64,000 nt of DNA from Naegleria gruberi (lineage: Eukaryota). The DNA is taken from assembly GCA_000004985.1 (NCBI GenBank), contig GG738923.1. One strand, written 5' to 3'. The position numbers and the translations under genes were made by a program. Of this stretch, positions 1 through 50,455 are shown one piece after another. Within the stretch, counting starts at the first letter, position 1; each line of letters opens with the position of its first letter. Below the pieces are notes generated by a model, which did no database searches, had not been told where the DNA came from, and was given only the letters and a program-made list of their open reading frames with translations.

Positions 1-109
1 TTCTTTTTATGTTTTTATTAAAAATAATAATTTAAATAATACTTCTAATCATAATAATAATTTAAATTATTATTCAAATAGTTTTGAAATTGATTTTTTA
101 AAATATTTA

Positions 110-889
110 ATGTATTTTAGTTTAATTATATATGGAAATATTTATTCAATTTTAAATTGTAAACCTAAAAGAACACCTGATGATATGTCTTTACAAAAAA
201 TTGAATATTCTGAAAATGAAAAATGGTTTCAAAAAACTTCATTTATTTTTTTATCTGTTTTTTATGCTTTATCTTCTACTTTATATAGATATGAACATTT
301 AAAAATATATTCTGCTTTAATTACTATATTTGGTATTATTGGTATTATTATTTATTTATTTAAAATTAAAAATATTAATGAAATATTTGGAATTGATCAA
401 CAAATTAGACAAAATTTAATTGATGAATTTTTAAATACTAAAAAAATATTATTTAATTATTGTTTAATTTTTACAATTTTATCATTTTTATTATGTTTTT
501 TATTTGGAATTTATAAACCATTAAATAATTATATTTCTATAATTGTACATTTATGTATTTCATTAACTATATATAATTATTTTATTTTTAATTTTTATAA
601 TTTTTATTATCAAAAAGATATTTTAGATTCAAGAAGAAACAAATTAAAAATTTACTTTTTCCTAATTCCATTATTTTATTATGAAAAGAGAATATTAAGA
701 AATATTCCACTAATAATAGTAATAATAATAATGAAATTAAAGAAGAAATTTTACATGAAAAAACTGAATAAATTTATAAATTATTTAAATTTAAATCAAA
801 ATAAATTCCATAATGATCAGATGCAGGCTTACCAAATAAAGGATCTTGCAAATTTAAATTTTCAGTTCCAAATAATTTTAAATCTTTAA
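110..889 (+). CDS. Hypothetical multi-pass membrane protein. The 3' end is uncertain, because the ORF tail overlaps the convergent EEP gene and the true stop is probably earlier.
   Basis: 259-aa ORF with several hydrophobic 20-25 aa segments (IIGIIIYLF, ILSFLLCFLFGIY, HLCISLTIYNYFIF). No recognisable family. Confidence 0.35.
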   Translation: MYFSLIIYGNIYSILNCKPKRTPDDMSLQKIEYSENEKWFQKTSFIFLSVFYALSSTLYRYEHLKIYSALITIFGIIGIIIYLFKIKNINEIFGIDQQIRQNLIDEFLNTKKILFNYCLIFTILSFLLCFLFGIYKPLNNYISIIVHLCISLTIYNYFIFNFYNFYYQKDILDSRRNKLKIYFFLIPLFYYEKRILRNIPLIIVIIIMKLKKKFYMKKLNKFINYLNLNQNKFHNDQMQAYQIKDLANLNFQFQIILNL

Positions 890-1775
890 ATAATAATTTA
901 TCATTTACATTTTTAGGTATTTTATAATAAATTCTATCAAATCTTTTTCTAAAATTTTCATCTCCAATTAATTTATTAAATTTACCATCAAAAGTAAATT
1001 CCAAAGATGGTAATTCATTATTTTCATTATTTTTAAATAATTTTAAATATAAATCATTAAATCCATTTGGAAAATATTCATTTTCATTTACAATATTTAA
1101 ATCACCAAATATAAAATTAAAATTTTGATTATTTTCAAAATAATTTTCAATAAATTTTAATTGTAATTTTCTATTTTCAATTTCTTCATTTAAATTTCCA
1201 GCCTTTAAATGACATAATAATAAATTAATATTAATATTTTCTAATTCATTAATTTTTAATTCAATTTCCATTTTAATAGCACTTCTCCAATAAGATGGAA
1301 AATTAAATTTTGAAATTTCAATTTTAATATTTTCATTTTTTTTAAATAAAAATAAATTTCCAAATAAATGATTAGATCTAGAAGATTTTTCAAATTCATT
1401 TAAATCAATTTGTGAAATTTCATAATTATTTTGAATCCATGATTTTTCCAAGGCTAATTTTAAAAATTGTGGATTTGCTTCATTTAAACCAATTATATCT
1501 GCATTTAAATTTGGTAATATATTATCTAATTGATAATTAAATCTTTTTATATTATTTGGTCCATCTATACCTCCATATAATTCACTATTAAAATGATCAA
1601 ATAAAACATTATATAATGCTATACGAAGTGGTGGTATTGTTATTGATTGTGATGATTGTGATTGTGATTGTGATGATAAAGAATTTATATTGGATAAACA
1701 TGTTGATGGTGGTGAGGAAGCAGATTTTAAACAAGCCTTTGAAAGTGACCAAGTTCCATTCCGAAATGAAAACAT
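774..1775 (-). CDS. Endonuclease/exonuclease/phosphatase (EEP) family protein, TDP2-like.
   Basis: 333-aa ORF with EEP signature residues in order: LNEAN (catalytic Glu), CHL (His), GDLN (Asp/Asn), RFDRIYY, and the C-terminal PASDHYGIYFDL (SDH motif) typical of TDP2/CCR4-type EEP enzymes. Confidence 0.7.
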   Translation of the reverse strand: MFSFRNGTWSLSKACLKSASSPPSTCLSNINSLSSQSQSQSSQSITIPPLRIALYNVLFDHFNSELYGGIDGPNNIKRFNYQLDNILPNLNADIIGLNEANPQFLKLALEKSWIQNNYEISQIDLNEFEKSSRSNHLFGNLFLFKKNENIKIEISKFNFPSYWRSAIKMEIELKINELENININLLLCHLKAGNLNEEIENRKLQLKFIENYFENNQNFNFIFGDLNIVNENEYFPNGFNDLYLKLFKNNENNELPSLEFTFDGKFNKLIGDENFRKRFDRIYYKIPKNVNDKLLFKDLKLFGTENLNLQDPLFGKPASDHYGIYFDLNLNNL

Positions 1776-1853
1776 TTTTTTATTTAAAATTGAATAAAAG
1801 ACTGTGTTAGTTGTTGTATTTGATGATTATGATGTAAATTCTTGTATTTAATT

Positions 1854-2230
1854 ATTGATTGGAATATGAAGAGTACTATTATTTAATTATTATTATTATT
1901 CAGTGNNNNNNNNNNNNNNNNNNNNNNNNNNNNNNNNNNNNNNNNNNNNNNNNNNNNNNNNNNNNNNNNNNNNNNNNNNNNNNNNNNNNNNNNNNNNNNN
2001 NNNNNNNNNNNNNNNNNNNNNNNNNNNNNNNNNNNNNNNNNNNNNNNNNNNNNNNNNNNNNNNNNNNNNNNNNNNNNNNNNNNNNNNNNNNNNNNNNNNN
2101 NNNNNNNNNNNNNNNNNNNNNNNNNNNNNNNNNNNNNNNNNNNNNNNNNNNNNNNNNNNNNNNNNNNNNNNNNNNNNNNNNNNNATTGATTGGAATTTGA
2201 AGAGTACTATTATTTAATTATTATTCAGTG
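1854..2230. repeat. Direct repeat of about 50 bp flanking an assembly gap (N-run 1906..2184).
   Basis: Left flank 1854..1905 (attgattggaatatgaagagtactattatttaattatt...attcagtg) is repeated almost exactly at 2185..2230 immediately after the N-run. This is a tandem repeat spanning the gap. Confidence 0.6.
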
Positions 2231-2623
2231 ATTGGAACTCTAATGTTCTAAGGAGTTCTATTTTCATTGTACCTTATCAAAATATTAATTGCATCATCAT
2301 GGTAGAAATACAATGAATAATATTGTACTATTATTTCATTCACCATCATTATTACAATTGTTTACACTTATTCTGTTCAATAATATTCATCATTTGATGA
2401 TGGGCAACAAATCAATGATTGTAATTTACTGCTAGTTGTGGGGTATCTCCATGTTTTTGTTGTCCATTTTTGTTATGTTGACCATCAATACAAGGCTTGA
2501 ATGAACGAATCTCTCTATCTCTTTAGATCTCGTTGTTTTTAAATTGTCAAAAGAAAATATTCGAAACATTGACAAGCCTTTGAATTATTTGAATTAGCCT
2601 TCTTGAATTTTTGAAACATAAAG

Positions 2624-3972
2624 ATGTCTAACTTTAATCCCTATGATGATGATCCATTTGGTATCACTTCTTATAATACAACTGCAAATGTTACAACAAC
2701 AACAACATTAACACCTACTATTAATACTAATTCTACATACAATACTACTAATAATGCTGCTAATAGTAATAATAACATATTTAAACCACGTGCTTTTACA
2801 ACATCTCCAAATAATCAACCACAATTTAATTCAAATTATTTTCAATCATCAAATATCAATACTAATTATAATAATAACATGAATACACCAACTCATTACA
2901 ACAATAATAATACATTAACATCACCTAATAGTAATATTGGTATTATTAATAATCCAACATCAACACCTAAAAGTCCATCCTATACAACACCTAGAAGATC
3001 AACTATTGGATTTGAAGATGATTTTTCTGATACAACTATTACAACACCATTAGATACTAATTTTACAATTGAATCATCTGATTTCTTTTTATCATTGGGT
3101 TCATCTCCATCTCATAGACATACTCTCAGTGGTGCAAGTACTAATACAATTAATACTTCACCTCAATTAATGCCATCTTCTAATATTAATATGAATATGA
3201 ATCATCATTTCATAACTTCACCTAGAAGTGTTATGAATAATACAATGTCAACTGGTAATACTCAAATGATGAGTAATAATAATAGTAATAATGGTGGTGG
3301 TGCTCAAAATTCATTCTGGAATAATACATCATCTAATGTCATTACAGGTACTAATACATCACCTATTTATTCAAATGTTAATAATACACCACGTCAAAGT
3401 ATTGCAAATTCAAATGAATTTATGAATCCTTATAATAATAATACTACCACTACTACTACTACTACTACAATTGGTAATAATAATAATAATAATATTGAAA
3501 ATCCATCTATTAGTTCTGTTAAATCAATTGAAAAACAAAGTAATACTACTATGAAAAGAAGAAGTAGAACAATGTTTGAATCCAATAATAGAAATAATAA
3601 CTTTTCAAAGGATTTATTAGATTTTAATCCTTTTTCTACTAATACTACTAATAATAATACTAATACTACTACTACTACTACTAATAATAATAATAATACA
3701 ATTACAAATTCAAATGATAAAAGTCAACCTACAAGTAAAACACCATTTGATTTATTAGATTTAAAAAATTCACTTCAAGAATATGATGAATTATCAGGTG
3801 AAAGTAGTCCAGTTAATTCTAGACCAAAAAGTATGAAATTTTTAAAATCAAATTTTGATCATTTTGATTCAAATTCTTCCAATAACAATATTCGTAATTC
3901 TATTAATAGTAGTAATACTAATGATGATTCATCACCAAGTACTACTAATTCATCCATTTCCAATTCAAATAT

Positions 3973-4004
<32 letters not shown>

Positions 4005-4033
4005 CTTCCAATAATACCATAAATACTATTTAA
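2624..4033 (+). CDS. Asn/Thr/Ser-rich low-complexity protein. It may be the N-terminal extension of the downstream GOLPH3-domain ORF.
   Basis: 469-aa ORF dominated by poly-N, poly-T and NNN/TTT tracts. It ends at 4033, only 22 bp before the ATG of the next ORF, which opens in another frame from 4023. Confidence 0.5.
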
Positions 4034-4055
4034 TCAACAACAACAACAACAACAA

Positions 4056-5210
4056 ATGAATAGAGAAATATTATTTCTTGGAATGGATAATAAATTAACA
4101 ATACCTGAAAATATATTAATGATATGTTTAAGTGATTCAGGTATAGTAAAATCCTATGTTTCTGATCAAATAGAAGAATTATGTATGATGGGAATATTTT
4201 GTGAATTAATTTTACATAAAAAAATGACAACACGTCCATTGAGAGATTTATGTAAAGGTAAATTTGGATTACAAGTATTAGATTCAAAACCAATTCAAAT
4301 AACAAATAAGAGAGATACATCAATTATTGAATTATTAAATGAAGTATTAAATTTAATTAATGGAATTAATGAAAAATGTTTAGCTAAAGATGTAAATCAA
4401 ATGACAGTTAAAGATTATATTAAAATATTATGTTTAGGTAGAAAAGTTGGAAATGTTTTAATTTATAAAATTGCAAATATTTTAACTAGAATTGGTAAAC
4501 AATTAAGTGAAAGAAAAATAGTTGATTATAAAAAGACATTATTTCTATTTTTATCATTACCTATTAAAGATAAAATAGAAAGAGATAGATGTTTAAATGA
4601 ATTAATTTTATTTTTAAAAATGTTAAGAACTGAATTAGATGTACAAGATGAATTAACTTCCATTTATAGTGGTACATTAACTTATGATACTTGTACTGAA
4701 AGAATGTTAAAAAATAGACATGATTTTGTTATTTATACTTTATTAGGTATTTTTACTATGAATAATACTGATATTTTATCAAATGATATTATTAAAAATG
4801 AAAATGATAGAAAAGCATTAAAAGAACTTTCATTTTCTATTTTTAATATTAATAATAATAATAATAATGGAAATAATTCTAAAAATACTTCATTTAAGAA
4901 GCAACAACAACAATTAAAGAAACAACAACAACAACATACAACACTAATTGATGAACAATTAATGGATATGGTTGAAAGTGATGATGATGAACAATCAGAA
5001 GATAACATGTTAAGTATTAATAATAGTACTACTATTAATGGTATTAATAATACTATTGGAGGTAATAGTTTAACATCATCCAATAATAATAATTTAACAT
5101 TGGATAAAAAGACAAATATTAATTTACATCATTTTCCTGAGGGATTAAATTATTTTGAAGAAATTGCATTACAACTCAAGAGATGTATTTATGGAAGTAA
5201 TAAGCAATAA
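4056..5210 (+). CDS. GOLPH3/Vps74 (GPP34) family Golgi phosphoprotein domain protein.
   Basis: LTIPENILMICLSDSGIVKSYVSDQIEELCMMGIFCELILHKKM matches the GOLPH3 core LTLMEEVLLLGLKD..G..SFWND.IS..LRG..L.ELALRG. Downstream helices (DYIKILCLGRKVGNVLIYKIANIL, LFLFLSLPIKDK, DFVIYTLLGIF) are colinear with GOLPH3. The C-terminus has poly-N/Q tracts. Confidence 0.6.
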   Translation: MNREILFLGMDNKLTIPENILMICLSDSGIVKSYVSDQIEELCMMGIFCELILHKKMTTRPLRDLCKGKFGLQVLDSKPIQITNKRDTSIIELLNEVLNLINGINEKCLAKDVNQMTVKDYIKILCLGRKVGNVLIYKIANILTRIGKQLSERKIVDYKKTLFLFLSLPIKDKIERDRCLNELILFLKMLRTELDVQDELTSIYSGTLTYDTCTERMLKNRHDFVIYTLLGIFTMNNTDILSNDIIKNENDRKALKELSFSIFNINNNNNNGNNSKNTSFKKQQQQLKKQQQQHTTLIDEQLMDMVESDDDEQSEDNMLSINNSTTINGINNTIGGNSLTSSNNNNLTLDKKTNINLHHFPEGLNYFEEIALQLKRCIYGSNKQ

Positions 5211-5348
5211 TTGATTGATAATTGATAATTGTTATTTGATATTTGATAATAATTTTGAATTAATTGATATTTGAAATATATTTTGTAACAGTGTAAATAA
5301 AAACAATTTTAGAGAACAATGAAATTGATATTTGTTGTAAATACTTTC

Positions 5349-5392
5349 CATCAACACTAGTCATTTAAAAAGAGTAATGACTAGTGTTGATG
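5349..5392. repeat. Perfect 17-bp inverted repeat (hairpin) with a 10-nt loop in the region 3' of the GOLPH3-like gene.
   Basis: catcaacactagtcatt (5349..5365), loop taaaaagagt, then aatgactagtgttgatg (5376..5392). It is extended by outer imperfect arms actttccat (5343..5351) and atggaaagt (5412..5420). Confidence 0.8.
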
Positions 5393-5489
5393 TTTGCCAT
5401 TCATATCATAATGGAAAGTATTAGAATGTTATTTAAATCACACACGAAAGAACTGTTCAATTCAACAATATCAAAAAAAACAAAGTAAA

Positions 5490-6176
5490 ATGATTATGCA
5501 AGAATACTTCCCTATTAAGAAACAATCCTCATTCAATGTTGTTAACAATTCCAATAACAACAACAAGTCTTTAAATGTTATTGAAAAGAAACTTTCTAAA
5601 AATCCTTTAGATAATTTTCAAGTACTTGTTAGTGCTCGTCCTTCTAAACAAGTTTTCATTCCAACTGTATCATCTAATGTTGTTGAAAATTCCATTATTG
5701 TTAAGAAATTTCCATTTCCATATTTGAAAAGAAAGTCAATTAGAGTTGATTTGGTTTTGAAACAACAAAAATTGGCACAACAAAAGAAGAATTCATCACC
5801 TATTCAAAAATTGAGAAATGAAAAGAAACAATTAGAATTAGAAAATTCCAAATTGAAATCTAAATTACTAAATTTAGAAAATCAATTTAATCAATTAATT
5901 AATCAAAAATCAAAGAAAATGGTAACATTTAAACAAGAATGTGAATGTACTAAATGCCACATGTCAATTAATTCTAAATATATGAAATATCATAAGAGAA
6001 TATGTGGAAATGTTAAATTAAATAGAATTTTAAATGAAAATGATTTAAAAAGTTTACAATTAATTAAAAAGAATAATCAACAAGAACAATTATCAATTAA
6101 ACCAAAAAATAATTGGAGAAGAAAGAGACAAGAATTTATTAGACAAGTAAAATCTATCAAAAGAAATAATTTGTAA
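5490..6176 (+). CDS. Basic, coiled-coil-prone hypothetical protein with a Cys/His cluster.
   Basis: 228-aa ORF. It is Lys-rich (LENQFNQLINQKSKK heptad-like) and has CECTKCHMSINSKYMKYHKRICGNVK (C-x-C-x2-C-H...H-x3-C), possibly a zinc knuckle. Confidence 0.45.
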   Translation: MIMQEYFPIKKQSSFNVVNNSNNNNKSLNVIEKKLSKNPLDNFQVLVSARPSKQVFIPTVSSNVVENSIIVKKFPFPYLKRKSIRVDLVLKQQKLAQQKKNSSPIQKLRNEKKQLELENSKLKSKLLNLENQFNQLINQKSKKMVTFKQECECTKCHMSINSKYMKYHKRICGNVKLNRILNENDLKSLQLIKKNNQQEQLSIKPKNNWRRKRQEFIRQVKSIKRNNL

Positions 6177-6237
6177 AATATTTAATAAAAATTAAATACA
6201 ACTCTGAGTTAATAAAATTAAAATTAAAAATTAAAAT

Positions 6238-7029
6238 TTATTTTGGACAATATTTTGGAATTTCATATAAATTTAAATCTGATTGACCAATAATAAAATC
6301 AACATAATCAGTTGCACCTGGATCATTTTCTTGATTTGTAGAACGTAATGGAATTCTATCTTCCATTTTATCAGCAACTCTATGATAATATTTCATACCA
6401 TCTAAATCATCTATATTTGGAAATTGCCAAATATCACTATATAATCCTCTAAATAAACTTCTACCAATATAATTAGTAATTTGTAACCAATTAGGTGAAA
6501 TTAAAGGTAAAGTTCTAGATCTAATCCAACATTCTTGTGTTTTAGGATAAATATACCAAACAGTTGAATTCCACCATAAAATTGTAAAGTTTGTTGCACC
6601 CCATTCATTATTCATACTATAATAGGAATCAAAAAAATCAAATTTACCTAATTGATTTTTATAATCATAATATAATTTTGTCCATTGAATATCTGTATTA
6701 AATGGTGTTATTTTTAATAGGGTTGCATTAAATTGTAATGGCCATATTGGATTGGTTGGTATTATTGTATTTGTATTAGCATTAGTAGTTTTGGAATTAC
6801 TATATTTAGATAGAGTTCTAAATTTGTATTGTTGATTTAATTCTTGAATTTTTAATAATTGAAATGGAAGTGTATTTTCATAGATTTTAGTACGTGGAGT
6901 AGATGAGTGATAAATAGAAGTAGCAGTAGTAGATGATATTTTAGAACATTCACTCATGCAAGAAATGAATGCAATGATTACAATGAATATTATTGCAATA
7001 CTATTATTATAGGATTGTTGTTGTTGCAT
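6238..7029 (-). CDS. Secreted hypothetical protein (signal peptide; Trp/Tyr-rich).
   Basis: ORF begins MQQQQSYNNSIAIIFIVIIAFISCMSEC (hydrophobic signal-like segment), then a 230-aa region rich in W/Y/N with N-glycosylation sequons. No family recognised. An alternative upstream start is at 7056. Confidence 0.5.
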   Translation of the reverse strand: MQQQQSYNNSIAIIFIVIIAFISCMSECSKISSTTATSIYHSSTPRTKIYENTLPFQLLKIQELNQQYKFRTLSKYSNSKTTNANTNTIIPTNPIWPLQFNATLLKITPFNTDIQWTKLYYDYKNQLGKFDFFDSYYSMNNEWGATNFTILWWNSTVWYIYPKTQECWIRSRTLPLISPNWLQITNYIGRSLFRGLYSDIWQFPNIDDLDGMKYYHRVADKMEDRIPLRSTNQENDPGATDYVDFIIGQSDLNLYEIPKYCPK

Positions 7030-7183
7030 TTTTTTTAGAATTGATAAGATCCTCACACTGAAGTTGTACCTGTTTAAATAGGCATCCTGTTAGTGCTCAT
7101 GTTGTGGAGTAACTGAGCAGAAATTCGGAGTCTGTTACAATGTCATTTTATTATTTTGGAAAGTTGACCATTTTGAATTATTC

Positions 7184-7351
7184 GCGCCAAAATATTTACC
7201 TTTATTTTGGTGATGGAAACGTAAAAAGGTTGAAGAAATATGACGATAGTGTTTGAATATAGTTAAAATTAACTTCTTTATTGGTTTTTATGAAATGGGG
7301 TTTAAATTGACCAGTAAGTTGCGATCAAAATAAAGGTAAATATTTTGGCGC
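7184..7351. repeat. Pair of perfect 26-bp inverted repeats separated by 116 bp (MITE-like or stem-loop element) about 90 bp 3' of tRNA-Ile.
   Basis: gcgccaaaatatttacctttattttg (7184..7209) and its exact reverse complement caaaataaaggtaaatattttggcgc (7326..7351). Confidence 0.8.
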
Positions 7352-9013: not shown

Positions 9014-11108
9014 TTATTTCTTATTTGGTTGTTTGTTAGTTGATTGTAAAATTAAAGCATTTTCATCTTCTAAAACCTTTTCAGATTTTGATTGTTTAAC
9101 AGTAATTGTTGAATTATTTAAAATCAATGCCACGTGTTCACCATTATTTGTTAAATTTACAATAAATGATTTAACCATTGGATCAATTAATGGAATGTGA
9201 ATTCTCAAATCAATACAATGGAATGGATCATCAGTCAAATTACATCTTTTAACTTTTGGAATTGAACCACGAATGACACCACTTTGTGAACTTGTCATTG
9301 ATTCTGTCATTTGATGAGCTAACATGTCATTAATCCAAACTCTGAATGGTTCATCTTCACTTGCAGGAATAGCAGCATAATGAAGATAAATTCTACTCAT
9401 TTGATCATTCTTATCACCTAATTGATTAGTATCAAATGAATCATTATGTTGTTGTTTGATTCTAATATTATTTCTATTTCCTTCTTGAGTAATTAGAATT
9501 TGAATGAATTTACCATGTTGAGAGAGATTGAAATTTTGTTGAGTATAAATATTTGCTTCAGGCATATCAATTAATAGAGAAACAATGCAATCTTCTCTTG
9601 GTAGTTTTGGAAAAGTACCTCTGACAATAACTGTTTTACCAGATGGAGTTGAATCCTCTCTCTGATACATGACTGTTTTACCTTCATAAAGTAATTTAAA
9701 TGGTTTCTCAGGTGTTGCCTTAATATTGGAAATGTAAATTGCCAAATCCATAGTTTCACCAAATTCACCTTGTTGTTTCTTCTTATTTTCAATAATTTTA
9801 GAAGGTGCTTGATCTTTCTTTAATCCCATAACTTGTCTCTTCTTTTCATCATATTCTTCTTGTTCTAAAATACCTTGTTCTAATAGAGAATCTAATTTAC
9901 TCAATTGATCTCTTTGTTGAGGTGTTAATTTTAATTTCAATCCTGAATCGTCATCATCATCATCATCATCTTCATCTCCATATTCATCTTCATCTTCATC
10001 ATCATCTGGTAATAATTGTCTCTTCTTTGCTTTATATTCTTCATCTGTTAAAATTCCTGCATCAAGTAAATCTTGAAGTTTTTGTAATTGTTCTTCAACT
10101 GTTGCAGTAGAATTGGATTTCTTTGAAGATTTCTTAACAGTTGTTGTTGTAACCATAGATTCAGATGGTCTCTTTCTTTCTTCTTCCAATTTTTTACGTT
10201 GTTGTCTCAATAGAGTTTCCTTCTTTGAAATTACTTCATCCTCTGATAAAATTTCAGATTCAACTAAATTGGCCAATTTTTCCAATTGTTGAATTTGATC
10301 TGGTGTTAATAAATCTCTTTCTTCAGGTGTTAAATTTAATTTATAACCAGAGGAGGAATTAGAAGAAACAGCAGCAGTAGTAGTAGTAGATGGTTTCTTT
10401 GAAATGGTTGTACTAGCTCCTACTCTCTTTGATGATGAAATAATTGGTTGGTCATCTGAATCATCATCTTCATCTTCAGTTGTAGAATCTTGAAGAATTT
10501 TCTTTCCAATTGCAGATTTCAATGCTGATAATTCTCTATCACTATTACTTTCATCACCACCACTTACAATAACAGCTTCATCACTACTATTATCACTACT
10601 GTTAGATGAATATTTGTTTGATGTTCTATTGTTACTACTACCACCACTACTAGTAGTAGTGTTGTTGACTTGTTTGTTAATAATTGGTCGATTATTGACA
10701 ATTCTATTAGATGATGATTTAATAATTGGTTCATCATCAGAATCATCATCTGTTGATTCGGCAACAATATGTTTACGTTGTTGACTTGATGTTGATGATG
10801 TTGTTGTTGTTGTTGGTTTGGTTGTTGTTGTTGTTGATTGAGATGGTGTAGATTTTTGACTAACAATTGGTATTTCTTCTTCTTCATCTTCTTCTTCAAA
10901 GGAACCTCCCGATAAAATCTTTTTCTTTTCCTCCTCTATTAGAGTTTAGTTTTAAGTTTCGTAAGTGATGATAATACTTACCAAAATCTTCAGGATCCAT
11001 CAAACCTTGGTCAAGGAATGATTGAAGAATTTGAATTTGTTCTCTTTGCTCATCAGTAATGTTAACCATCTTGTTTTTTTTTTGATTTAAATTAATTTCG
11101 TCATTCAC
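9014..11108 (-). CDS. Protein with four SHOCT-like motifs, acidic linkers and an unknown 300-aa C-terminal domain. Two exons: 10982..11108 and 9014..10935; intron 10936..10981.
   Basis: Exon 1 (MNDEINLNQKKNKMVNITDEQREQIQILQSFLDQGLMDPEDF) ends at GTAAGT. The intron (46 nt) ends AATAG. Exon 2 is open in phase through the ORF 9014..10522. The spliced product is 682 aa. Four motifs fit the SHOCT consensus L..L.e.GiIteeE(Y/F)..kKrqLL: LQSFLDQGLMDPEDF|EEEKKKIL (split by the intron), LEKLANLVESEILSEDEVISKKETLL, LQDLLDAGILTDEEYKAKKRQLL and LDSLLEQGILEQEEYDEKKRQVM. Confidence 0.65.
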
Positions 11109-13448: not shown

Positions 13449-16015
13449 TCATTCCTGATAATTTTCAAAAGAAAGAACACCTCTCATTTCGAAATATTCT
13501 ATTAAAGGGGTCAATTTGACAGTTTCATTTGCATTTGACATACAAATATGATATCCAACATTTTCCAATCCTTTGAATTCAATAAAAATCCGCATATTAG
13601 AAATAATGTTACTAATGATCACTTCTCCATCCTTGTGTTGAATGGTCAAGAAATCTGGAATACATTTAAACGACTCCATCTTATTGGTATTGAATGAGTA
13701 TTTGGCTAATAGTTGATTTCCATCAATTTTCATATCATTCAATGGACTATCATATTGATAACCACTATTTAGTAACTTCCATTTTGCAAATAGTTCAATA
13801 TTTTTACCATTCATTACATATTTAATGAGGTAGAGTGGTAATTCAAGTGCTTTCAAATCCTCATTCACAATAAAACAGTGTAGAATATCAATGAATGTAG
13901 AATTCATGAGTTTCATCTTATCTAGTAAGAAACATCGCAGAATTGGATTAGACACTTTCAGTATTTGTCCTTTGCATTCATCATTATGGAGATAATTGGC
14001 CAATTCGAACAATGATACCAATATTTGATAATACTTCTCTATTGGAGGACTTTGGATGATATTGAATTGAAGGAAACAGTTATAGAATGCAATTGTGTCG
14101 TTAGTAATCTTCTCGTGCTCAGTTTCTATTGTCAATAGAGTTGATAAATCTTTCTCCAAATATTGGCCAACAGGTTTAAACTCTCCAGTTGCTTTTGGGT
14201 TATAGCAGAACTCATTTTCATTCACAATTAATGACCTATCATGTTCAGTTCCAAAAGTTTCAAAAGCATTATGGAATCTCTTGAATTTCTGCTTTGGATG
14301 GTTTAATTTTTCCATCCACAATTTAGCTTGCAATAAATTTTTCTTCACTCCAACTCCATAATTAAAGCAATCAATGATAAATTGAATTGCCATAGTATGA
14401 TGTTGTTGAGCTGCCTTATAACCCCAATCAAATGCCTGTGCAAAATCTTTCTTTACCCAAATTCCTTCATTAAATATGCGTGCCATTTGGTATTGGGCCT
14501 CATCATGTCCATTGTTAGCAGATTTCGACAGCCATTTGTGGGCACGTTCATAATTCTTATCAGTATTGAGAAAAAACATTCCAACCTCAAATTGTGCAAG
14601 TGAGTTATCATTCTTGGCAGCTTTCAATAACCATTGAAAACCTTCTCTTTGATCCTGTTGAACATCTTGCCCATTTTTCAACATTATTCCAACGTGGTAT
14701 TGAGCCTGAGCATCCGTTTCCGCTAGTTTCATATAATATTTGAATGATCCCATAATTAATACATCAGAGGATTTTGTTACAATTTCCACATCAAAAAGCT
14801 TGGGATTATGATTAATTTTCAATACAGGATACTCTTCTAATACCTTTTTCAAAGTAAAATAGGCTGAAGAAGCTGTGGTTCCTATTGCAACTTTTAGTAG
14901 AGTTTCATTCCTTAATTTTTCACAATTTTCAACACACTTGTCAACTTGAATACACCACACTTTTGGAGTTGCTCGTAGTTTTCTAACGTGTTTAAAACCA
15001 GCAGTTGTATAATACATATCTACAAGGCCATCCTCTGATCCTGAAAATATGAAATCACCCTCAAAGATACATGTTGTCACAGGTTCTGGATGAATTTGAG
15101 ATAATTTCACAATGCATTCTCCAGAGTCACAGTCAAATATTTGAGTGCTTCCATCATCAAACGAGGCAACAAACCAATTTCTTCTATTGTAATCATTTCC
15201 TCTGTAAAAATCTACACAGTTGACTGGAGATTTTGTCTTGATCTTTTTGCTACTTGGTTTTGGTTTGCCTATTATTCACTATTTAATTTTATAAATATTC
15301 GAATAAACTTACTCGATATTTTGAAAAGACTCTTATCTGAATCTGTTTCTCTATATTCACTCAATTGCTTAAATGGAATATTCCACACAGTAACTGTTGA
15401 ATTCAAAGAACCTGAAATTACAATATCTGTATTGAAACAATTCATAGACATGGACATGACATATTTTTTTGGATCTAAACTAACATTTGACATGACGTGT
15501 TCAACAGCAAACTTCTTCTCCCAATTCCACAATAAAATTTTTCCATTATCACCACCTGCCATAATGAATGGATATTTAGGATGTACCATTAGACATCTAA
15601 CATATTCACCAAAAGGCACTCTAACAACTTCTAAATCATTTTCATAATCAATAACATGTACATTTCCCCTATCAGTACCACAAACAATATATTTCAATTG
15701 ATTAATAAATTTTAAACATCGAATAGGTGCTTTCGGTTCAATAGTAAAGGTATAGTGTAATTGTAATTCATCAGCACTATTTGATTCACCTGTTGTTGTA
15801 ACTCTAACTCTGAATACTTTAATAAAACCTTCATAGGAAGAAATTGCTAGTAGTGTTCGATCATGATTGAATTCTATTGCTTTGACATAGGGAACAAGTT
15901 GATTATTGGTGATGGGAATGGATTTTAATTCATGAGTGAGCAGAGTTTTGGAAAGATTGGGAAAGATTATCTTGTTTTGATCCGAAGTTGGCTTGAGTTT
16001 GGCAAGTAATTTCAT
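13449..16015 (-). CDS. WD40-repeat plus Sel1-repeat protein. Two exons: 15313..16015 and 13449..15268; intron 15269..15312. About 840 aa.
   Basis: Upstream ORF 15272..16015 has WD40 blades (LLAISSYEGFIKVF, IVCGTDRGNVHVIDY, IMAGGDNGKILLWNW, VISGSLNSTVTVWNI). GTAAGT donor at 15312. After a 44-nt intron the frame continues (SKPKPSSKK...FVASFDDGSTQIFDCDSGECIVKL...) into ORF 13449..15110, which carries Sel1-like repeats (AQYHVGIMLKNGQDV..., AQFEVGMFFLN..., AQYQMARIFNEGIWV..., AIQFIIDCFNYGVGV...) and an unknown C-terminal region. Confidence 0.7.
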
Positions 16016-17524: not shown

Positions 17525-18494
17525 TTGATAGATCACGATAAAGATAATAGAATAGAAATGACAAAGATTGAATATCCAAATTTGATGGAGGACTCTATTG
17601 TTTATAATATTCAATATTTTATGGGAAAGGATTATGTGTATTTAGTGGACAAAAAAAATGGGACTGTTGGATCTTTTTCTCTCAATTCAGGCCAATTGTT
17701 AGTTAACTATTATTCAGATCATAGAGGAATCAGAAAGTTTATCACTGGACCTGTTTCTTCTTGTCATGTCGTGCTGACCTATGATGGAACTATTTTTGAG
17801 AATGGAAAGGAGGTTGTTTTTTTTTCAACTGATCCACAACCGAATATTTTGAGAGCTGCATGTTGTGGAAGAGGATCAATTCTGGCTTCTTCTCATGATC
17901 TTTATGCAAGAGGAGATGATAATGTATTCTTTGCGTTTTCAGAAAAGTTTGGAGACTACAATCACAATGTTTCAGCAACAAAGTTTGTACATATTGCTAA
18001 ATTTGAACACGAAATTAGAGATATCCAATGTGGATACTTTTTTTCTGTAGTTCTTTTGCATAATAATGAATTATTGGCATGTGGCTATAATGGCTTGAAT
18101 CAATCCTCTTGGGATTCTTCCTATGGTGAGATTAAACAATTTACCAAAATTCAATACTCGTTCGGTTATATTGAGAGATTTGGCTGTTCTTCAAGAGGTA
18201 CTTGGGTTGTTAGTGGTGAGTATTTTGATGTTCTTTTTCTTATCTTTTTAAGGTGATGAGGTTACAATGGTAGGAGAGGTTGTTGAACTTTTTACAACCT
18301 TAGTTTCAAATACAGGAGTTCCAAAAATCATAAAGTTTCATCTGGAGGACTTTGATTGTGATACATTGATGAATTGTGGATGGCACTACGTGATGTACAA
18401 CCAAAACCCAAAGAAGAGTAACTATTTCAAAGAAAGACTTCATACCATGGTTGAATTGGAACTAATTACTGACCTTGGTTTCATTTGCCAATAA
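17525..18494 (+). CDS. RCC1-like (beta-propeller repeat) protein. Two exons: 17525..18215 and 18253..18494; intron 18216..18252.
   Basis: Blade-like motifs ILASSHDLYARGDDN, VVLLHNNELLACGYNGLNQSS and RGTWVVSG. GTGAGT donor and TTTAAG acceptor (37-nt intron) join in phase to GDEVTMVGEVVELF...GFICQ*. Paralogous to 32519..33862. Confidence 0.55.
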
Positions 18495-18886
18495 GGCAAC
18501 TGGAGGAAATACATTGAAGGAATCGGTTTATTCCTTAAGCACAGCATGTGTCTCTGCCAAGTTTTTAACTTGAGGAAAACTAAGGAAGTCTGGAATTTCA
18601 ATGCACTTAAAAATAGTTTCTTAACAAAACAGAATATTTGTTGAAAAGTCTGTCGCTGGTAAGAGTGAGTTTATTCAAGAATTGGAAGATCAATTTGATT
18701 CTCAAACTCATTTGACTAAGTATAACTGATGCATAACTGTTAAAAGATCCATAGGGTGAGTCAACTAATTGCCAAATGATGATTTGAAGATTAACAAATT
18801 TTAAAATTAAGGTATGAGCAATCGATCTCTTATGCACCAATTTGTTTATTAAGGCGAATTAAGGAATGATATTTATCTTTATGTAA

Positions 18887-18957
18887 TCGGGCGTGGTATA
18901 GTGGTAGCATTCCAGACTGTCACTCTGGCGACCCGGGTTCAATTCCCGGCGTTCGAG
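18887..18957 (+). tRNA. tRNA-Asp (anticodon GUC), copy 1.
   Basis: TCGGGCGTGGTATAGTGGTAGCATTCCAGACTGTCACTCTGGCGACCCGGGTTCAATTCCCGGCGTTCGAG. Acceptor stem with 2 G-U pairs, Asp-type GUAU D-stem, anticodon stem CCAGA/TCTGG with loop CTGTCAC, and T-arm CCGGG-TTCAATT-CCCGG. Confidence 0.75.
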
Positions 18958-19318
18958 TTCAATTTTATGTAGTTTTTGAAAATTTATCTTGGAGTTTTGT
19001 ATCGAAGTTTGGACATCATTTTTCTATTTTAAATATGTGTGAAAAATGTCACGAAGCATGTTTGAAACTTTTGTAGTGAGAATATGGAGAGAGTGGATAC
19101 AATATCATTCATAGAAAGCCTAATGTGTTGTTTAGGTGGTATTGTTGTGTTCTATTAATAATAATTGAAATTAAGGTATGTACCATTTGTTTGTATTGAT
19201 TTAAATTTATTGAGTTATTAGTGTTGATATATAGTTATAGTAAACAATTAAGAAAACTTGAAAGATTCAGATCAGAATTGTAACACTTGTTAGTGATTGA
19301 GTTTCTTAGTAAAAAAAA

Positions 19319-20563
19319 ATGCGAAACAATAAAGAGGGGAAAGTTAGATTTTTTCTTTGTGATTTTAAACTTCCTTCCAGTGATGATAATTCCACTCAAA
19401 TATTAAATTGGTTAAAAATCAAATTTGGCCAATTAAAATTTTCATCATTTAATTGTTCATCAATAAGAGATTTTAAATTTTGTTCCGATAATTTATTGGA
19501 AAGAATTGATAGGATGGGATTTGAAAAACCATCCTATGTGCATAGGCAGTGTATTTTTCCAATGATTCGTTCTCATGAGAGTCAAGATTATTTATTCGAA
19601 AATTGTGGTGAAGGAACAGATCGGATTGTTTCGTATGTGATTGGAATTATTGAAAGAAGATATCGAATGAGGAATGAAAAGAATGGAACGACCATTGTGA
19701 TTGGAAATGGATGGCAATGGGCATATACTGTTAGATATTTGTTAAAATCTTTAGGAGGAGATGATTTGAAAGTTTGTTTGTGTTTGGAAGGATTCAGGGC
19801 AAGTACTTTTCAAGGAAATGAGGATGTGATTGTTGGAATTTGTAACAATGTGAACAATCTTGTCAATTCTGGGTCTCTAAAAGCAAAGGATGTAAATTTA
19901 TTGATTATTGATCAAGCTAATCATTTGATTTTTGATTTAGATTGTGGTTTACATATACTGATGTGGAATTTTAATTGTAAAGTTTGTTGGTTTTGTCTAA
20001 CTGATTGTCTGAAGGAAAATCCTCTGAGAGATCCCATCAAGATTCAAATATTGAAAGATGGAACAGATTATCCTGATCTGAGAGCTTCTTACTCTAAGAA
20101 TTTTTACATTGATGTAGAAATTGAAGACTACAAATACGAAACTATCAGTGATTTATTCGATATTTTGGATGGTCTTCGAGCAGTAGTGTACTGTGAATCA
20201 GATGAGAAAGCTAAGGCAATTTGTGAAAAATTGCAAGATCGGTTTCTTGTAGCATGTTTACACAGAGGCCTTGGAGAAACACAAATTGAGGAAATTAGAC
20301 AAGATTTTAATTGGGCAAAGGTTAGATTTTTATTTACAACAGATCATTTCTCTAAACTTGAATATCATCCAGTCTTGGTGATAAACTATGATTTACCATG
20401 GCAAAATGAAAAGTATGCACTTCGACAAATCACATCAAGGTTTAGAAATACAGCAACTATCAGCTTGATACGACACGAAGACGTTATTAAGATTAGAGAA
20501 ATTGAGAAATTTTATTTCATTGAAATTCAAGAATGTCCGTATGCCATTCTCGATTACCTTTGA
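19319..20563 (+). CDS. eIF4A-like DEAD-box helicase paralog with degenerate catalytic motifs (putative pseudo-helicase).
   Basis: 414-aa ORF colinear with eIF4A. RMGFEKPSYVHRQCIFPMIRSHESQDYLFENCGEGTDR corresponds to GFEKPSAIQQRAI...AQSGTGKT, with the Q-motif kept and the Walker A GKT lost. LIIDQANHL corresponds to VLDEADEML (DEAD lost). VLVINYDLPWQNEKYALRQITSRFRN corresponds to LVINYDLP.N.E.YIHRIGRGGR (motif VI lost). Domain 2 core (AVVYCESDEKAKAICEKL...FLFTTDHFSK) is retained. Confidence 0.75.
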   Translation: MRNNKEGKVRFFLCDFKLPSSDDNSTQILNWLKIKFGQLKFSSFNCSSIRDFKFCSDNLLERIDRMGFEKPSYVHRQCIFPMIRSHESQDYLFENCGEGTDRIVSYVIGIIERRYRMRNEKNGTTIVIGNGWQWAYTVRYLLKSLGGDDLKVCLCLEGFRASTFQGNEDVIVGICNNVNNLVNSGSLKAKDVNLLIIDQANHLIFDLDCGLHILMWNFNCKVCWFCLTDCLKENPLRDPIKIQILKDGTDYPDLRASYSKNFYIDVEIEDYKYETISDLFDILDGLRAVVYCESDEKAKAICEKLQDRFLVACLHRGLGETQIEEIRQDFNWAKVRFLFTTDHFSKLEYHPVLVINYDLPWQNEKYALRQITSRFRNTATISLIRHEDVIKIREIEKFYFIEIQECPYAILDYL

Positions 20564-20716
20564 TGAATTTCGAATGAATAGAAAGACAAGAAAAGGATAT
20601 CCTTCTTTGAAAAGAATACTGCTGATATCTTCAATTTTGGATATTAATTTATACATATTAATTATTACATAGAAATTTTCCTTCAATTCATGAATTTCAA
20701 TTTGGGAAATAGAAAA

Positions 20717-21853
20717 CTAAAAGTAATTGTTAACTGTAAGGGAACTGACCTCAGGTGCTGTGAGTGCCTTAGTGAAAATCATTACATTAGCAATATATCC
20801 AGTATAGTAATAAGTTCCAGCATTGTGTCCACCAATGGTCAACTTTCCATCACTCAAATTCTTGGAGGCAATTGAAGTTGCACTGGTCTTGTATAATGAT
20901 CCGTCAATATAGAGATCAGTACCATCAGTTCTAAAAACAAATACTAAATGTCTCCAAACATCGGTTGCAAATAGGGTTCCATCAGTTACAAAAGGTGTAG
21001 TAAACTTGTCATCATAAAAACTAAACCCTTTGGCAGAAGCAACGTTGAAGAAAATGTAATTACCATTAGTACTGAAAGCCATTGCAACACCTCCATAAGG
21101 GCTCTTAAGCCACAATGAAAAGCTGTTGGAAACTGTAAGATTGACATTCACAGTAGAAGCGAGACCATTCTTCTTTCCATCGAAATAAACTGATTTACCA
21201 CCTGGGAATGGTGAATCATTGGAAAAGACTGGATTTGAAGAAGCACCTTGATTTGGATTGTTAACCAAGTGGAGAGAACCAACACTATCAGCGAAGGTAT
21301 TATTGAAATAGTAAGCATGGGCAAGATATGGAGTCATTGGTGCTGTGAAAAAGGAGGAACAAGAGGCTCCAATATATGGTTTTGTACAAGTGCAATTATT
21401 AGGAGCAATACATGAACCGTGTCCAGAGCAAACCGAAGCATTATTAGCAGCCAATCCAAAACATACTGGGACACAGTTAGGATAATTGGTAAAACCATCT
21501 TGGCATGCATTACAATCAGAACCATTGTAAGTGGAACACTGGGAATTAATGACACGAATTTCAGCATCTAATAAGGCTATTGCTGAAGCAACTTTGGACA
21601 ATTGCTTGCTTCTCAAATCAATAATGGTCTTTAAAGATGGTGCTGATGAAGAATTACTAGTAAAGAAGGTGCTGTTTAACAAGTTAATAGTATTCTCTAA
21701 CTTGGTTTTGGTGCATGCCACAGCATCTCTTTCCTTTTGTAAAGAAGCTAAATAATCCCTCAATCCACCTGTTGTTTGGTGAAGAGTAAGTGTTATATTG
21801 GCTAGTAAGAGGAAAACTACTAGCAGCGCGCAAAACCTTAGCAATTGAATCAT
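20717..21853 (-). CDS. Secreted protein with signal peptide, EGF-like Cys-rich module and a concanavalin-A-like lectin / LamG (Laminin_G_3-type) domain.
   Basis: N-terminal MIQLLRFCALLVVFLLLANITLT signal. Cys pattern CSTYNGSDCNACQDGFTNYPNCVPVC...CSGHGSCIAPNNCTCTKPYIGASC (EGF-like). C-terminal WLKSPYGGVAMAF...VWRHLVFVFRTDGTDLYIDGSLY...LTIGGHNAGTYYYTGYIANVMIFTKALTAPEV matches the LamG/pentraxin jelly-roll consensus (W.H.....DG...lYvDG......iG......f.G.i..v.i...aLs..E). Confidence 0.75.
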   Translation of the reverse strand: MIQLLRFCALLVVFLLLANITLTLHQTTGGLRDYLASLQKERDAVACTKTKLENTINLLNSTFFTSNSSSAPSLKTIIDLRSKQLSKVASAIALLDAEIRVINSQCSTYNGSDCNACQDGFTNYPNCVPVCFGLAANNASVCSGHGSCIAPNNCTCTKPYIGASCSSFFTAPMTPYLAHAYYFNNTFADSVGSLHLVNNPNQGASSNPVFSNDSPFPGGKSVYFDGKKNGLASTVNVNLTVSNSFSLWLKSPYGGVAMAFSTNGNYIFFNVASAKGFSFYDDKFTTPFVTDGTLFATDVWRHLVFVFRTDGTDLYIDGSLYKTSATSIASKNLSDGKLTIGGHNAGTYYYTGYIANVMIFTKALTAPEVSSLTVNNYF

Positions 21854-22382
21854 GTTGTTGTTGGTTGGTATTAAGGAAGATCGTACTTAATCCTGTGAGG
21901 AGTTTTTTTTGAAAACAGTGGTCCTTTTGATTGGTGCTTGTTTGGTCGCATCTTCGTTTACAGTAAAATCCACTGTAACGGATAGTTTTTTAAGGAACTG
22001 TATTGGAATGGATTGTTGAGGCTTTCAATATTGTAGATTATTGTTTATACGACTTGATAAATTGCAACCAAATCAATATGGTTGGATATTAAGCAGCGGA
22101 TATCGACTTTGAATGTGATTTTGTTGAATAAAATTGCATGAAGTTCGATTGTATGTTGTCCCTAGTGTCAGGACGGTCCTTTATTTTGTCGATCTAAAAT
22201 GAGGAAATCGCTCCCCACAAAACAAAAAACAGATGGACCAATTTAAAATAAATAATTTTGGTTTGCTGTTTTGTCTAACAAAATCAAGATTGTTTGGACC
22301 AACATAACATTAATGATTGTATGTTGTCTAGTCTGATGGTAACAGTAAAAATGGAGCCTGACATCAAAATAATAATGATAAT

Positions 22383-23336
22383 TTAAATGGAAAACTTAAT
22401 GTATTCGTGAAATTGAGCAGATGATCCAGGATAAAAATCTTGTTGAAATTGTAAATGTTTTGCTTCTTCTTGAATTGTAACAGAAGATTTAATTGTTTGA
22501 AGAGATTTGATAACATCACTTTTCGTTGGTTGTGATAGGGCATTAAGACTAATATTGAAACTATTATTGGTAGCCATTAAGGCATTTCTAATAATGTTCA
22601 TCTGTGAATCCCTTACTACACACATTAAATCCGCATATGAATATCCATCACACATTGTGGAAATCTCCTCAATTTCATCATCTTGTATTGAACTATTTCT
22701 AAATGCATCTCTCAATATCTCAATCCTTTTCTCCTTATCTGGAAGAGGAATGTGAAATCTCCTCTTAAATATTTTCCTCACAGCTGGATTAATATTCCAA
22801 GGTGTTGAGCTTATAACCAAAACAATTACCCTACTCTCACGATCATACATGGATTGGAGAAATTCTTTCAAAACTGAAATTTCCTTCTCTGAATTACTAT
22901 TCCAATCACAAAATTCCAAATCATCGATTACTATAATACTTGGTTGACTAAGTTTTGCTTTTTCAAATACTTCTTGCATTGAACGTTTAAAATCATGATC
23001 TTGAGTGTAGATTACTTCTGCTTTTATCCTTTCATCGGTGAGTATTTTCTTAGTTAAATAGGTTTTACCCTTTTCCGATCAAATCAAAATATTAAATTTA
23101 ATATTACTCTCCAAATGATCATGATATTTGCTTACCACTCCTGGACATCCGTGAATTAATATTTCATTCCAAACTTTTGCATCAGGATATTCGAGAGGGA
23201 GAAGAATACTCTCAAGAAGTTCTTCTTCAATGCTAAGTTTTTTCTGTTGCAGCTGTTGTTCTTCTTCGCTAATAGAGGAAATTGTGGAATTGTGTTGTAA
23301 CATTTTTTTGTTGTAATGTTGATTGCATTCGTACAC
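22383..23336 (-). CDS. Short AAA+ ATPase (classic AAA clade) with non-canonical Walker B and sensor-1. Two exons: 23136..23336 and 22383..23069; intron 23070..23135. 295 aa.
   Basis: Exon 1 ends ...LIHGCPGV at GTAAGC. After a 66-nt intron, exon 2 continues GKTYLTKKIL, reconstituting Walker A GCPGVGKT. Walker B is IIVIDDLEF (DD instead of DE). Sensor-1 region VIVLVISSTPWNINPA lacks the Asn. Arg-finger region RKIFKRRFHIPLPDKEKRIEIL and the helical lid ISTMCDGYSYADLMCVVRD are AAA-typical. Confidence 0.7.
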
Positions 23337-23411
23337 ATGATTGTTTATTAATAGTTTGAAAGGTCGACTTGATTAAATGATGGAACAATGTAGTAGCACC
23401 ATCGAGTGGAA

Positions 23412-25218: not shown

Positions 25219-25289
25219 TCGGGCGTGGTATAGTGGTAGCATTCCAGACTGTCACTCTGGCGACCCGGGTTCAATTCCCGGCGTTCGAG
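25219..25289 (+). tRNA. tRNA-Asp (anticodon GUC), copy 2 (identical, in duplication unit 2).
   Basis: Same 71-nt sequence 6332 bp downstream of copy 1. Confidence 0.75.
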
Positions 25290-50421: not shown

Positions 50422-50455
50422 CTAATTACAATATAAATTACAATGGTTTTTTAAT

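What the first reader, a model, noticed from the sequence alone, without database searches (positions are those of the whole stretch)
2624..5210. Asn/Thr-rich ORF and GOLPH3-domain ORF separated by 22 bp in overlapping frames, a probable single gene split by a frameshift
ORF 2624..4033 (frame 2) stops at 4033. The GOLPH3-like ORF frame is already open from 4023 and its ATG is at 4056. A promoter is unlikely to fit in 22 bp, and GOLPH3 proteins normally carry an N-terminal extension before the LTLxE core, whereas this ORF has only 13 aa. A single-base indel near aaatactatttaatc would fuse them into a protein of about 860 aa.
Basis: seen in the sequence. Interest (0 to 1): 0.5.

Follow-up and report, generated by a model that had tools for sequence, protein, structure and literature searches.

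The report
One Naegleria gene split by frameshift
Two adjacent open reading frames in this Naegleria gruberi sequence are the two halves of one gene for a distant relative of the Golgi protein GOLPH3; a one-base frame break separates them, and it is probably a flaw in the draft genome or a broken allele, so the finding is ordinary but corrects the annotation.

Summary
ORF1 (2624-4033) ends at a TAA at 4031-4033. The ORF2 frame is open from 4023 and its ATG is at 4056. Deleting any one base in 4020-4033 gives a single 861-aa ORF.

The window is from Naegleria gruberi. The orthologs in N. fowleri (FDP41_007461, 695 aa) and N. lovaniensis (C9374_010454, 699 aa), and two more distant relatives, are single uninterrupted ORFs. 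Their N-terminal halves align with ORF1 motif by motif, and their C-terminal halves align with ORF2. The upstream neighbour gene is conserved. ORF1 and ORF2 are therefore one gene.

An intron is unlikely. At least 11 introns in this window are 39-97 nt long with GT[AG]AGT donors. No such donor lies within 1-7313, and the shortest frame-restoring GT..AG is 127 nt with donor GTACTA.

I could not tell whether the frameshift is an assembly error or a real allele, because no independent N. gruberi data were reachable. The same window contains an unmerged haplotype duplication and single-base indels at contig ends.

"GOLPH3-like" holds only as remote homology. Pfam GPP34 does not hit ORF2, but profile and fold comparisons do. 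The residues that align to the GOLPH3 pocket for the Golgi lipid PI4P are not conserved.

The annotated model NAEGRDRAFT_82043 is truncated. Interest is low.

The parts
2624..4033 (+). ORF1 is the N-terminal half of the gene (469 aa). It is Asn/Thr/Ser-rich and probably disordered. It carries conserved short motifs: FNPYDDDPF 2633-2659, PRRSTIGFEDDF 2990-3025, NFTIES..SPSHRHTLSG 3059-3133, NTPRQS 3383-3400, ENPSISSVKS 3497-3526, KRRSRTMFE 3554-3580, SKDLLDFNPF 3605-3634 and RPKSMK 3821-3838.
   Evidence: The motifs are colinear with the N-terminal halves of N. fowleri P0003 and N. lovaniensis P0009. KRRSRTM..LLDF is also present in L001 in the same frame as the ORF2 homolog.
4020..4033 (+). 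This is the frameshift window, TAAATACTATTTAA. Removing any one base here joins frame 2 to frame 0. The A-run at 4021-4023 and the T-run at 4029-4031 are the simplest sites.
4034..4055 (+). This is the 22-nt 'spacer', which contains (CAA)7. In the ORF2 frame it reads Q7, the same codon and residue run used inside ORF2 at 4906-4937. It is therefore most simply coding linker, not intergenic DNA.
4056..5210 (+). ORF2 is the C-terminal half of the gene (384 aa). It holds a divergent GOLPH3/Vps74-like (GPP34 superfamily) domain from L14 (4095) to about residue 195 (4640), then a poorly modelled helical region, low-complexity inserts and a conserved C-terminal helix, FPEGL..ALQLKRCIYG (5133-5195).
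4224..5210 (+). This is the extent of the existing annotation NAEGRDRAFT_82043 (XP_002669671.1, 328 aa). It starts at M57 of ORF2, so it lacks the first conserved helices of the domain and all of ORF1.

Best explanation
ORF1 and ORF2 are one protein-coding gene of Naegleria gruberi. It is the ortholog of N. fowleri FDP41_007461 and N. lovaniensis C9374_010454. The intact product would be about 861 aa. It would have a long, low-complexity, probably disordered N-terminal half studded with conserved short motifs, joined by an Asn/Gln-rich linker to a C-terminal divergent GOLPH3/Vps74-like domain. In the deposited sequence the frame is broken by one extra base within 4020-4033, inside that linker. 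I think the extra base is most likely not biological. It would then be a consensus error of the Sanger draft assembly, possibly where two haplotypes that differ in repeat length were merged. In that case the cell makes the full-length protein. By analogy with GOLPH3/Vps74, I infer that the protein is a peripheral endomembrane adaptor: the helical domain would dock on a membrane or client, and the disordered half would recruit partners. What is shown here: one gene, remote GOLPH3 homology, and no canonical intron. What is inferred: the break is an artefact, and the function.
For: There are six lines of support. (1) Four relatives with DNA in hand are continuous ORFs across the junction: L003 5001-7088, L005 5001-7100, L004 5001-6434 and L001 1-1305. 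(2) ORF1 and ORF2 align colinearly with those proteins (E 5e-28 and 3e-113; ORF1 against the upstream part of L001, E 4e-6), and the upstream neighbour is orthologous. (3) Both halves are intact over 469 and 384 codons, so the break is recent or unreal. (4) The two frames overlap, so a single one-base change repairs the gene, and the 22-nt spacer reads as a poly-Q run in the ORF2 frame. (5) The assembly is a Sanger draft (PMC9928731, Table 1) and is visibly imperfect in this window. There are N gaps at 1906-2184, 24767-24816 and 25915-27305. A 6.3-kb segment is present twice on either side of a gap, at 99.4-100% identity. Single-base indels lie within 10 nt of contig ends. (6) For GOLPH3 homology: hhalign gives 98.4% probability, E 7.9e-15; the profile hits Vps74 at E 6.6e-5; the Foldseek top 8 matches are all GOLPH3 or Vps74; and the bridging proteins P0006 and P0007 pass the Pfam GPP34 gathering score.
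Against: No independent N. gruberi reads, transcripts or second assembly could be reached. ORF1, ORF2 and two fused versions are absent from the protein collection, and two metagenome scans found nothing. 'Artefact' therefore rests on priors. The break is about 1.85 kb from the nearest gap, not at a contig end, and the A and T runs are only 3 nt long, so this is not a classic error site. Haplotypes in this strain really do differ by indels (one 3-nt indel in 3.8 kb), so a real frameshift allele is almost as likely. An ATG lies 23 nt after the stop, so ORF2 could in principle be translated on its own.
Confidence: 0.5

Rival explanations
1. The frameshift is real. One haplotype, or the whole NEG-M laboratory strain, carries a 1-nt insertion in the linker of this gene. 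That allele is broken and yields the 469-aa disordered half. ORF2 would be made, at most, by inefficient reinitiation.
For: The ortholog evidence is the same as for the one-gene reading. The two near-identical copies in this window show real allelic differences, including an indel (17 mismatches and a 3-nt indel in 3.8 kb). Naegleria is described as mainly a heterozygous diploid (PMC9928731). The site is not at a contig end.
Against: Both halves show no further damage, so the mutation would have to be very recent or heterozygous. The gene is conserved from N. fowleri to more distant relatives, which argues for selection against loss of function.
Confidence: 0.32
2. An unconventional spliceosomal intron removes the stop and restores the frame. 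Examples are 3939-4065 (127 nt, donor GTACTA) and 3894-4065 (172 nt, donor GTAATT), giving a product of about 804-819 aa.
For: GT..AG pairs of length 3n+1 exist that keep the conserved ILFLG..LTIPE start of the domain. N. gruberi genes do have introns.
Against: At least 11 introns that join ORFs in this window all use GT[AG]AGT donors and are 39-97 nt long. No GTRAGT occurs on either strand in 1-7313. Donors at or before 3831 would delete or cut the conserved RPKSMK motif. The putative intron reads as the same Asn/Ser/Thr-rich sequence in the ORF1 frame as the rest of ORF1. The orthologs have no intron here.
Confidence: 0.07
3. A real gene fission has occurred. In N. gruberi the ancestral gene has become two functional genes, an IDR protein and a stand-alone GOLPH3-like protein, and ORF2 is expressed from a promoter inside ORF1 or by termination-reinitiation.
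For: Both ORFs are intact. ORF2 keeps the whole domain and has an ATG 23 nt after the ORF1 stop. The existing annotation treats ORF2 as its own gene.
Against: A 22-nt gap made of CAA repeats leaves no room for a 3' end plus a promoter. All four relatives are fused. The overlap of the two open frames is exactly what a one-base slip produces.
Confidence: 0.05
4. The break is bypassed by programmed +1 ribosomal frameshifting at AUU-UAA-U (4028-4034). The ribosome slips from AUU to UUU at the stop and continues into ORF2, giving ...NTINQQQ....
For: The required shift is +1 and the site is a codon followed directly by a stop, which formally resembles known +1 sites such as Euplotes AAA-UAA (recalled, not tested). 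Both halves are intact.
Against: The relatives do not share the frameshift; all are continuous. tRNA-Ile re-pairing on UUU is poor. I know of no report of such recoding in Naegleria. The other ORF junctions I examined in the window are explained by ordinary introns.
Confidence: 0.03

Closest known systems
Naegleria fowleri FDP41_007461 (695 aa) and Naegleria lovaniensis C9374_010454 (699 aa), both annotated 'hypothetical protein'
   Same: They have the same domain order and the same conserved motifs in the same order. The C-terminal half is 50-51% identical and the conserved blocks of the N-terminal half about 36% identical. The start is the same (M..FNPYDDDPF) and the upstream neighbour gene is orthologous.
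   Different: They are single uninterrupted ORFs. The N. gruberi copy is about 165 aa longer because of Asn/Thr/Gln-rich insertions, lies in 22-23% G+C DNA, and is frame-broken in the deposited sequence.
GOLPH3 / yeast Vps74 (Pfam GPP34, PF05719; structures 3KN1, 2ZIH)
   Same: ORF2 has the same helical fold start (LTLMEEVLLLGL.. against LTIPENILMICL..) and an equivalent of the FLLFD..HP hairpin region (KKTLFLFLSLPIKD). The homology is detectable by profile and by fold. Like GOLPH3 and Vps74, the repaired protein has an unstructured N-terminal extension before the domain.
   Different: ORF2 and its Naegleria orthologs do not reach the Pfam GPP34 threshold. The PI4P-pocket residues (Vps74 W88/R97/K178/R181; PMC2806290) align to V35/M44/A140/L143 (alignment). 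The N-terminal extension is about 480 aa instead of about 60. There is an extra C-terminal region of about 190 aa with its own conserved terminal helix.

Membership tests
GOLPH3/Vps74 (Pfam GPP34, PF05719) | The sequence matches the PF05719 model at or above the gathering score (29.1 bits). | tested here: not met
   There was no hit for ORF2 at E<=10, nor for P0003 or P0005.
GOLPH3/Vps74 (Pfam GPP34, PF05719) | Profile-level homology to bona fide GPP34-domain proteins. | tested here: met
   The ORF2 family profile hits P0006 and P0007 at E 3e-7 and 1e-5 in 1.84 billion proteins, and these pass the GPP34 gathering score with 38.2 and 47.7 bits. hhalign of A4 against A5 gives 98.4% probability, E 7.9e-15, over 154 columns. 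Profile A3 hits Vps74 2zih_A at E 6.6e-5.
GOLPH3/Vps74 (Pfam GPP34, PF05719) | The GOLPH3 fold. | tested here: met
   The top 8 Foldseek matches of the AF2 model against PDB are all GOLPH3 or Vps74 (E 5e-4 to 2e-2, prob 1.00), and the next hit has E 2.5. One caveat applies: the model has mean pLDDT 51.6, only residues 12-153 are confident, and TM-scores are 0.3-0.5.
GOLPH3/Vps74 (Pfam GPP34, PF05719) | PI4P-binding pocket residues (GOLPH3 W81, R90, R171, R174; Vps74 W88, R97, K178, R181; PMC2806290). | tested here: not met
   In the HMMER alignment to Vps74 these positions correspond to V35, M44, A140 and L143 of ORF2. R145 and K148 lie nearby, so a small alignment shift cannot be excluded.
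GOLPH3/Vps74 (Pfam GPP34, PF05719) | A short unstructured N-terminus with a basic cluster that binds coatomer, and Golgi localisation. | not testable with these tools
   A basic cluster (KRRSR, 3554-3568) is conserved, but it lies about 170 aa upstream of the domain. Binding and localisation need experiments.
Orthologous group of FDP41_007461 / C9374_010454 | Colinear N-terminal motifs plus the C-terminal domain, and conserved gene neighbourhood. | tested here: met
   See alignment A2 and the tblastn results with the orthologous upstream neighbour.
Orthologous group of FDP41_007461 / C9374_010454 | A single uninterrupted ORF. | tested here: not met
   The deposited N. gruberi sequence has the frame break at 4020-4033. 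This break is the finding itself.
N. gruberi spliceosomal intron (as seen in this window) | A GT[AG]AGT donor, a length of about 40-100 nt and a YAG acceptor. | tested here: not met
   There is no GTRAGT in 1-7313. The shortest frame-restoring GT..AG is 127 nt with donor GTACTA.

The most novel reading that the evidence does not exclude
The extra base is real and present in all copies, and the cell still makes the full-length protein by programmed +1 frameshifting at AUU-UAA. Alternatively, it makes two separate proteins by termination-reinitiation across the 22-nt spacer. Either would be a first case of such recoding, or of a very young gene fission, in a heterolobosean.
Probability: 0.04. 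Interest if true: 0.6.

Novelty: new member of a known kind. Interest (0 to 1): 0.2.

Why it matters
The main value is for annotation. The N. gruberi reference lists only a truncated 328-aa 'hypothetical protein' (NAEGRDRAFT_82043), where the organism almost certainly encodes, or until recently encoded, a protein of about 861 aa. The family is also unannotated in N. fowleri and N. lovaniensis, and it can now be described as a divergent GOLPH3/Vps74-like protein with a very long disordered N-terminal half. That is a modest lead for people studying the unstacked Golgi and membrane traffic of Naegleria. The case also shows that indels in the 2010 Sanger assembly can split genes, which affects gene counts and ortholog tables built on it.

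Tried and rejected
Several approaches gave nothing or were rejected.

- Pfam on ORF1 and ORF2 found nothing.
- A PDB sequence search with a 2-sequence profile gave only noise. The 9-sequence profile was needed to reach Vps74.
- I looked for independent N. gruberi data. Exact look-ups of ORF1, ORF2, P0001 and two repaired 861-aa versions found only the one NCBI entry, P0001.
- The close soil relative P0004 has no contig on record.
- Two metagenome scans, one with protein patterns and one with a degenerate DNA pattern, found nothing.
- A word-index search with the least repetitive part of ORF1 returned no candidates, although P0003 shares words with it. That index is therefore lossy, and it says nothing about whether ORF1 has an annotated model.
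- Literature searches for the locus tags found nothing.
- The intron hypothesis was examined by enumerating all frame-restoring GT..AG pairs and was rejected on donor sequence, length and conservation.
- A readthrough explanation was rejected because the two ORFs are in different frames, and the ORF1 frame hits another stop at 4061-4063.

Full report
**Source and observation.** The window is from Naegleria gruberi. ORF2 is 100% identical to NAEGRDRAFT_82043 (XP_002669671.1), a 328-aa model on a 326,815-bp scaffold.

- ORF1 runs from 2624 to 4033 in frame 2 and ends at a TAA at 4031-4033.
- The other frame has its last stop at 4020-4022. It then reads ILFNQQQQQQQ, followed by M at 4056, and runs to 5210.
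- The gap between the ORFs is 22 nt, and 13 residues precede LTIPE.
- Removing any one base in 4020-4033 yields a single 861-aa ORF.
- In DNA of this composition (23% G+C, stop probability 0.093 per codon), open frames of 469 and 395 codons have chance probabilities near 1e-20 and 2e-17.

**One gene or two.** An exhaustive profile search found only eight related representative proteins, which is a small family.
- Two relatives carry long N-terminal extensions before the ORF2-like part. P0003 is 695 aa with the domain at 345-694. P0005 is 477 aa with the domain at 98-474.
- P0003 is N. fowleri FDP41_007461. A further search returned N. lovaniensis C9374_010454 (P0009, 699 aa).
- Their genes are single uninterrupted ORFs in genomic DNA: L003 5001-7088 and L005 5001-7100. 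The P0005 gene (L004 5001-6434) is also uninterrupted. The metagenomic contig L001 is one open frame from base 1 to 1305.
- In the multiple alignment, the N-terminal halves of the N. fowleri and N. lovaniensis proteins match ORF1 block by block. The blocks are M..FNPYDDDPF, PRRxTIGFEDDF, TIESxDFxLSxxSxPSHRHTxSG, NTPRQS, ENPxISxxKS, KRRSRTMFE, SKDLLDF and RPxSMK. Their C-terminal halves match ORF2.
- tblastn gives E 5e-28 for ORF1 and 3e-113 for ORF2 against the N. fowleri locus.
- The gene upstream in the window (110-889) is orthologous to the gene upstream in both other species.
- L001 carries the KRRSRTM..LLDF motif of ORF1 in the same frame as its ORF2-like part.

ORF1 and ORF2 are therefore the two halves of one ancestral gene, and the N. 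gruberi locus is its ortholog.

**Is the break an intron?** I collected the introns that join ORFs elsewhere in this window. They are:
- 10936-10981 (-)
- 15269-15312 (-)
- 18216-18273 (+)
- 33313-33354 (+)
- 42947-43043 (+)
- 43475-43539 (+)
- 49737-49788 (-)
- 51109-51154 (-)
- 51540-51596 (-)
- 52534-52572 (+)
- 54604-54649 (+)

All have GTAAGT or GTGAGT donors and are 39-97 nt long. Pfam hits confirm that several of them sit inside real genes for a folate carrier, a proteasomal AAA ATPase and a BCKDK/PDK-type kinase.

No GTRAGT occurs on either strand anywhere in 1-7313. The frame-restoring GT..AG pairs that keep the conserved start of the domain all end at 4065. Their donors are GTACTA (127 nt), GTAATA, GTAGTA, GTAATT, GTATGA, GTGAAA and GTAAAA. 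Those at or before 3831 would delete or cut the conserved RPKSMK motif. The stretch that would be removed reads, in the ORF1 frame, as the same Asn/Ser/Thr-rich sequence as the rest of ORF1. An intron is therefore unlikely; I put it at about 7%.

**Error or real mutation.** This could not be settled.
- Exact look-ups of ORF1, ORF2 and two repaired versions found nothing beyond the NCBI entry.
- The metagenome scans were empty.
- The only N. gruberi assembly in a 2023 pangenome survey is the Sanger one (PMC9928731, Table 1).

Some evidence bears on the priors. This window has three N gaps. The segment 18485-24766 is present again at 24817-31100, directly across a 50-N gap, at 99.4-100% identity. 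That looks like two haplotypes, or unmerged contig ends, laid in tandem. The two copies differ by 17 substitutions, one 3-nt indel and three single-base indels. All three single-base indels lie within 10 nt of a contig end. The assembly therefore contains single-base indel errors, and the strain also has genuine allelic indels.

The break at 4020-4033 is not at a contig end. Both halves are otherwise undamaged, and the gene is conserved across the genus. I estimate about 50% for a consensus or assembly artefact and about 32% for a real, recent or heterozygous frameshift allele. The remaining 18% is divided among an odd intron (7%), a true fission (5%), programmed +1 frameshifting (3%) and possibilities not listed.

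**What the protein is.** Pfam does not recognise ORF2 or its Naegleria orthologs. Three independent lines still link it to GOLPH3/Vps74.
- The family profile reaches P0006 and P0007 (E 3e-7 and 1e-5). These pass the Pfam GPP34 gathering score, and hhalign between the two groups gives 98.4% probability, E 7.9e-15.
- A 9-sequence profile hits yeast Vps74 in the PDB at E 6.6e-5. It aligns LTIPENILMICLSD with LTLMEEVLLMGLRD, and KKTLFLFLSLPIKD with the FLFDMATHPIAD hairpin region.
- An AlphaFold model has mean pLDDT of only 51.6, though residues 12-153 are confident. Its eight best PDB matches are all GOLPH3 or Vps74, with a clean gap to the noise.

The PI4P-pocket residues defined by Wood et al. 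(PMC2806290) align to V35, M44, A140 and L143. Lipid recognition may therefore differ from GOLPH3.

The N-terminal half is 24% Asn, 17% Thr and 15% Ser, and only short motifs are conserved. Several of them (DPF, NPF, DLLDF, a KRRSR cluster) resemble coat- or adaptor-binding motifs. That resemblance is recalled from memory and was not tested. The most likely function, by inference only, is a peripheral endomembrane adaptor.

**Verdict.** The existing gene model is truncated at M57 (position 4224) and omits ORF1. The finding is ordinary (interest 0.2). It is either a draft-assembly or allele-level frameshift in a gene that can now be described as a divergent GOLPH3-like family member.

Noticed in passing
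window 18485-24766 and 24817-31100: A 6.3-kb segment is present twice in tandem across a 50-N gap. The copies are 100% identical over the first 1.1 kb and 99.4% over 3.8 kb. Copy 2 contains a 1391-N gap. The copies differ by 17 substitutions, one 3-nt indel and three 1-nt indels next to contig ends. This is probably two haplotypes or unmerged contig ends, not a real duplication.
   Followed up: partly
window 4224-5210: The annotated model NAEGRDRAFT_82043 starts at the internal Met57 of ORF2. It therefore lacks the first conserved helices (LTIPENILMICLSDSGIVK, IEELCMMGIFCEL) of the GOLPH3-like domain.
   Followed up: yes
window 10936-10981, 15269-15312, 18216-18273, 33313-33354, 42947-43043, 43475-43539, 49737-49788, 51109-51154, 51540-51596, 52534-52572, 54604-54649: The introns in this window are very uniform. 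The donor is GTAAGT (once GTGAGT), the length is 39-97 nt and the acceptor is mostly TAG or CAG. This makes a useful local yardstick for gene models.
   Followed up: partly
window 774-1775 (-) and 110-889 (+): A 333-aa ORF on the minus strand overlaps, by about 115 nt, the 3' end of the conserved upstream neighbour (110-889). It has no counterpart in the syntenic N. fowleri and N. lovaniensis loci and no Pfam hit. An N gap (1906-2184) follows it.
   Followed up: no
window 2624-5210 compared with the rest: The gene lies in DNA of 22-23% G+C, whereas most of the window is 30-35%. Relative to its orthologs, the N. gruberi copy has been inflated throughout by AAT, ACT/ACA and CAA repeat insertions (Asn, Thr and Gln runs).
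   Followed up: partly
window 48753-51596 (-) and 52151-55228 (+): Runs of adjacent ORFs in different frames here are ordinary multi-exon genes. Pfam identifies a reduced-folate-carrier family protein, a proteasomal AAA ATPase, a TLDc-domain protein and a BCKDK/PDK-type kinase.
   Followed up: partly
P0006, P0007, P0008 (no locus): These are three proteins of unknown origin. Two pass Pfam GPP34. They share the LSIPEKILL..CEL start with the Naegleria family and also have N-terminal extensions of about 75-95 aa. They bridge the Naegleria family to canonical GOLPH3.
   Followed up: partly
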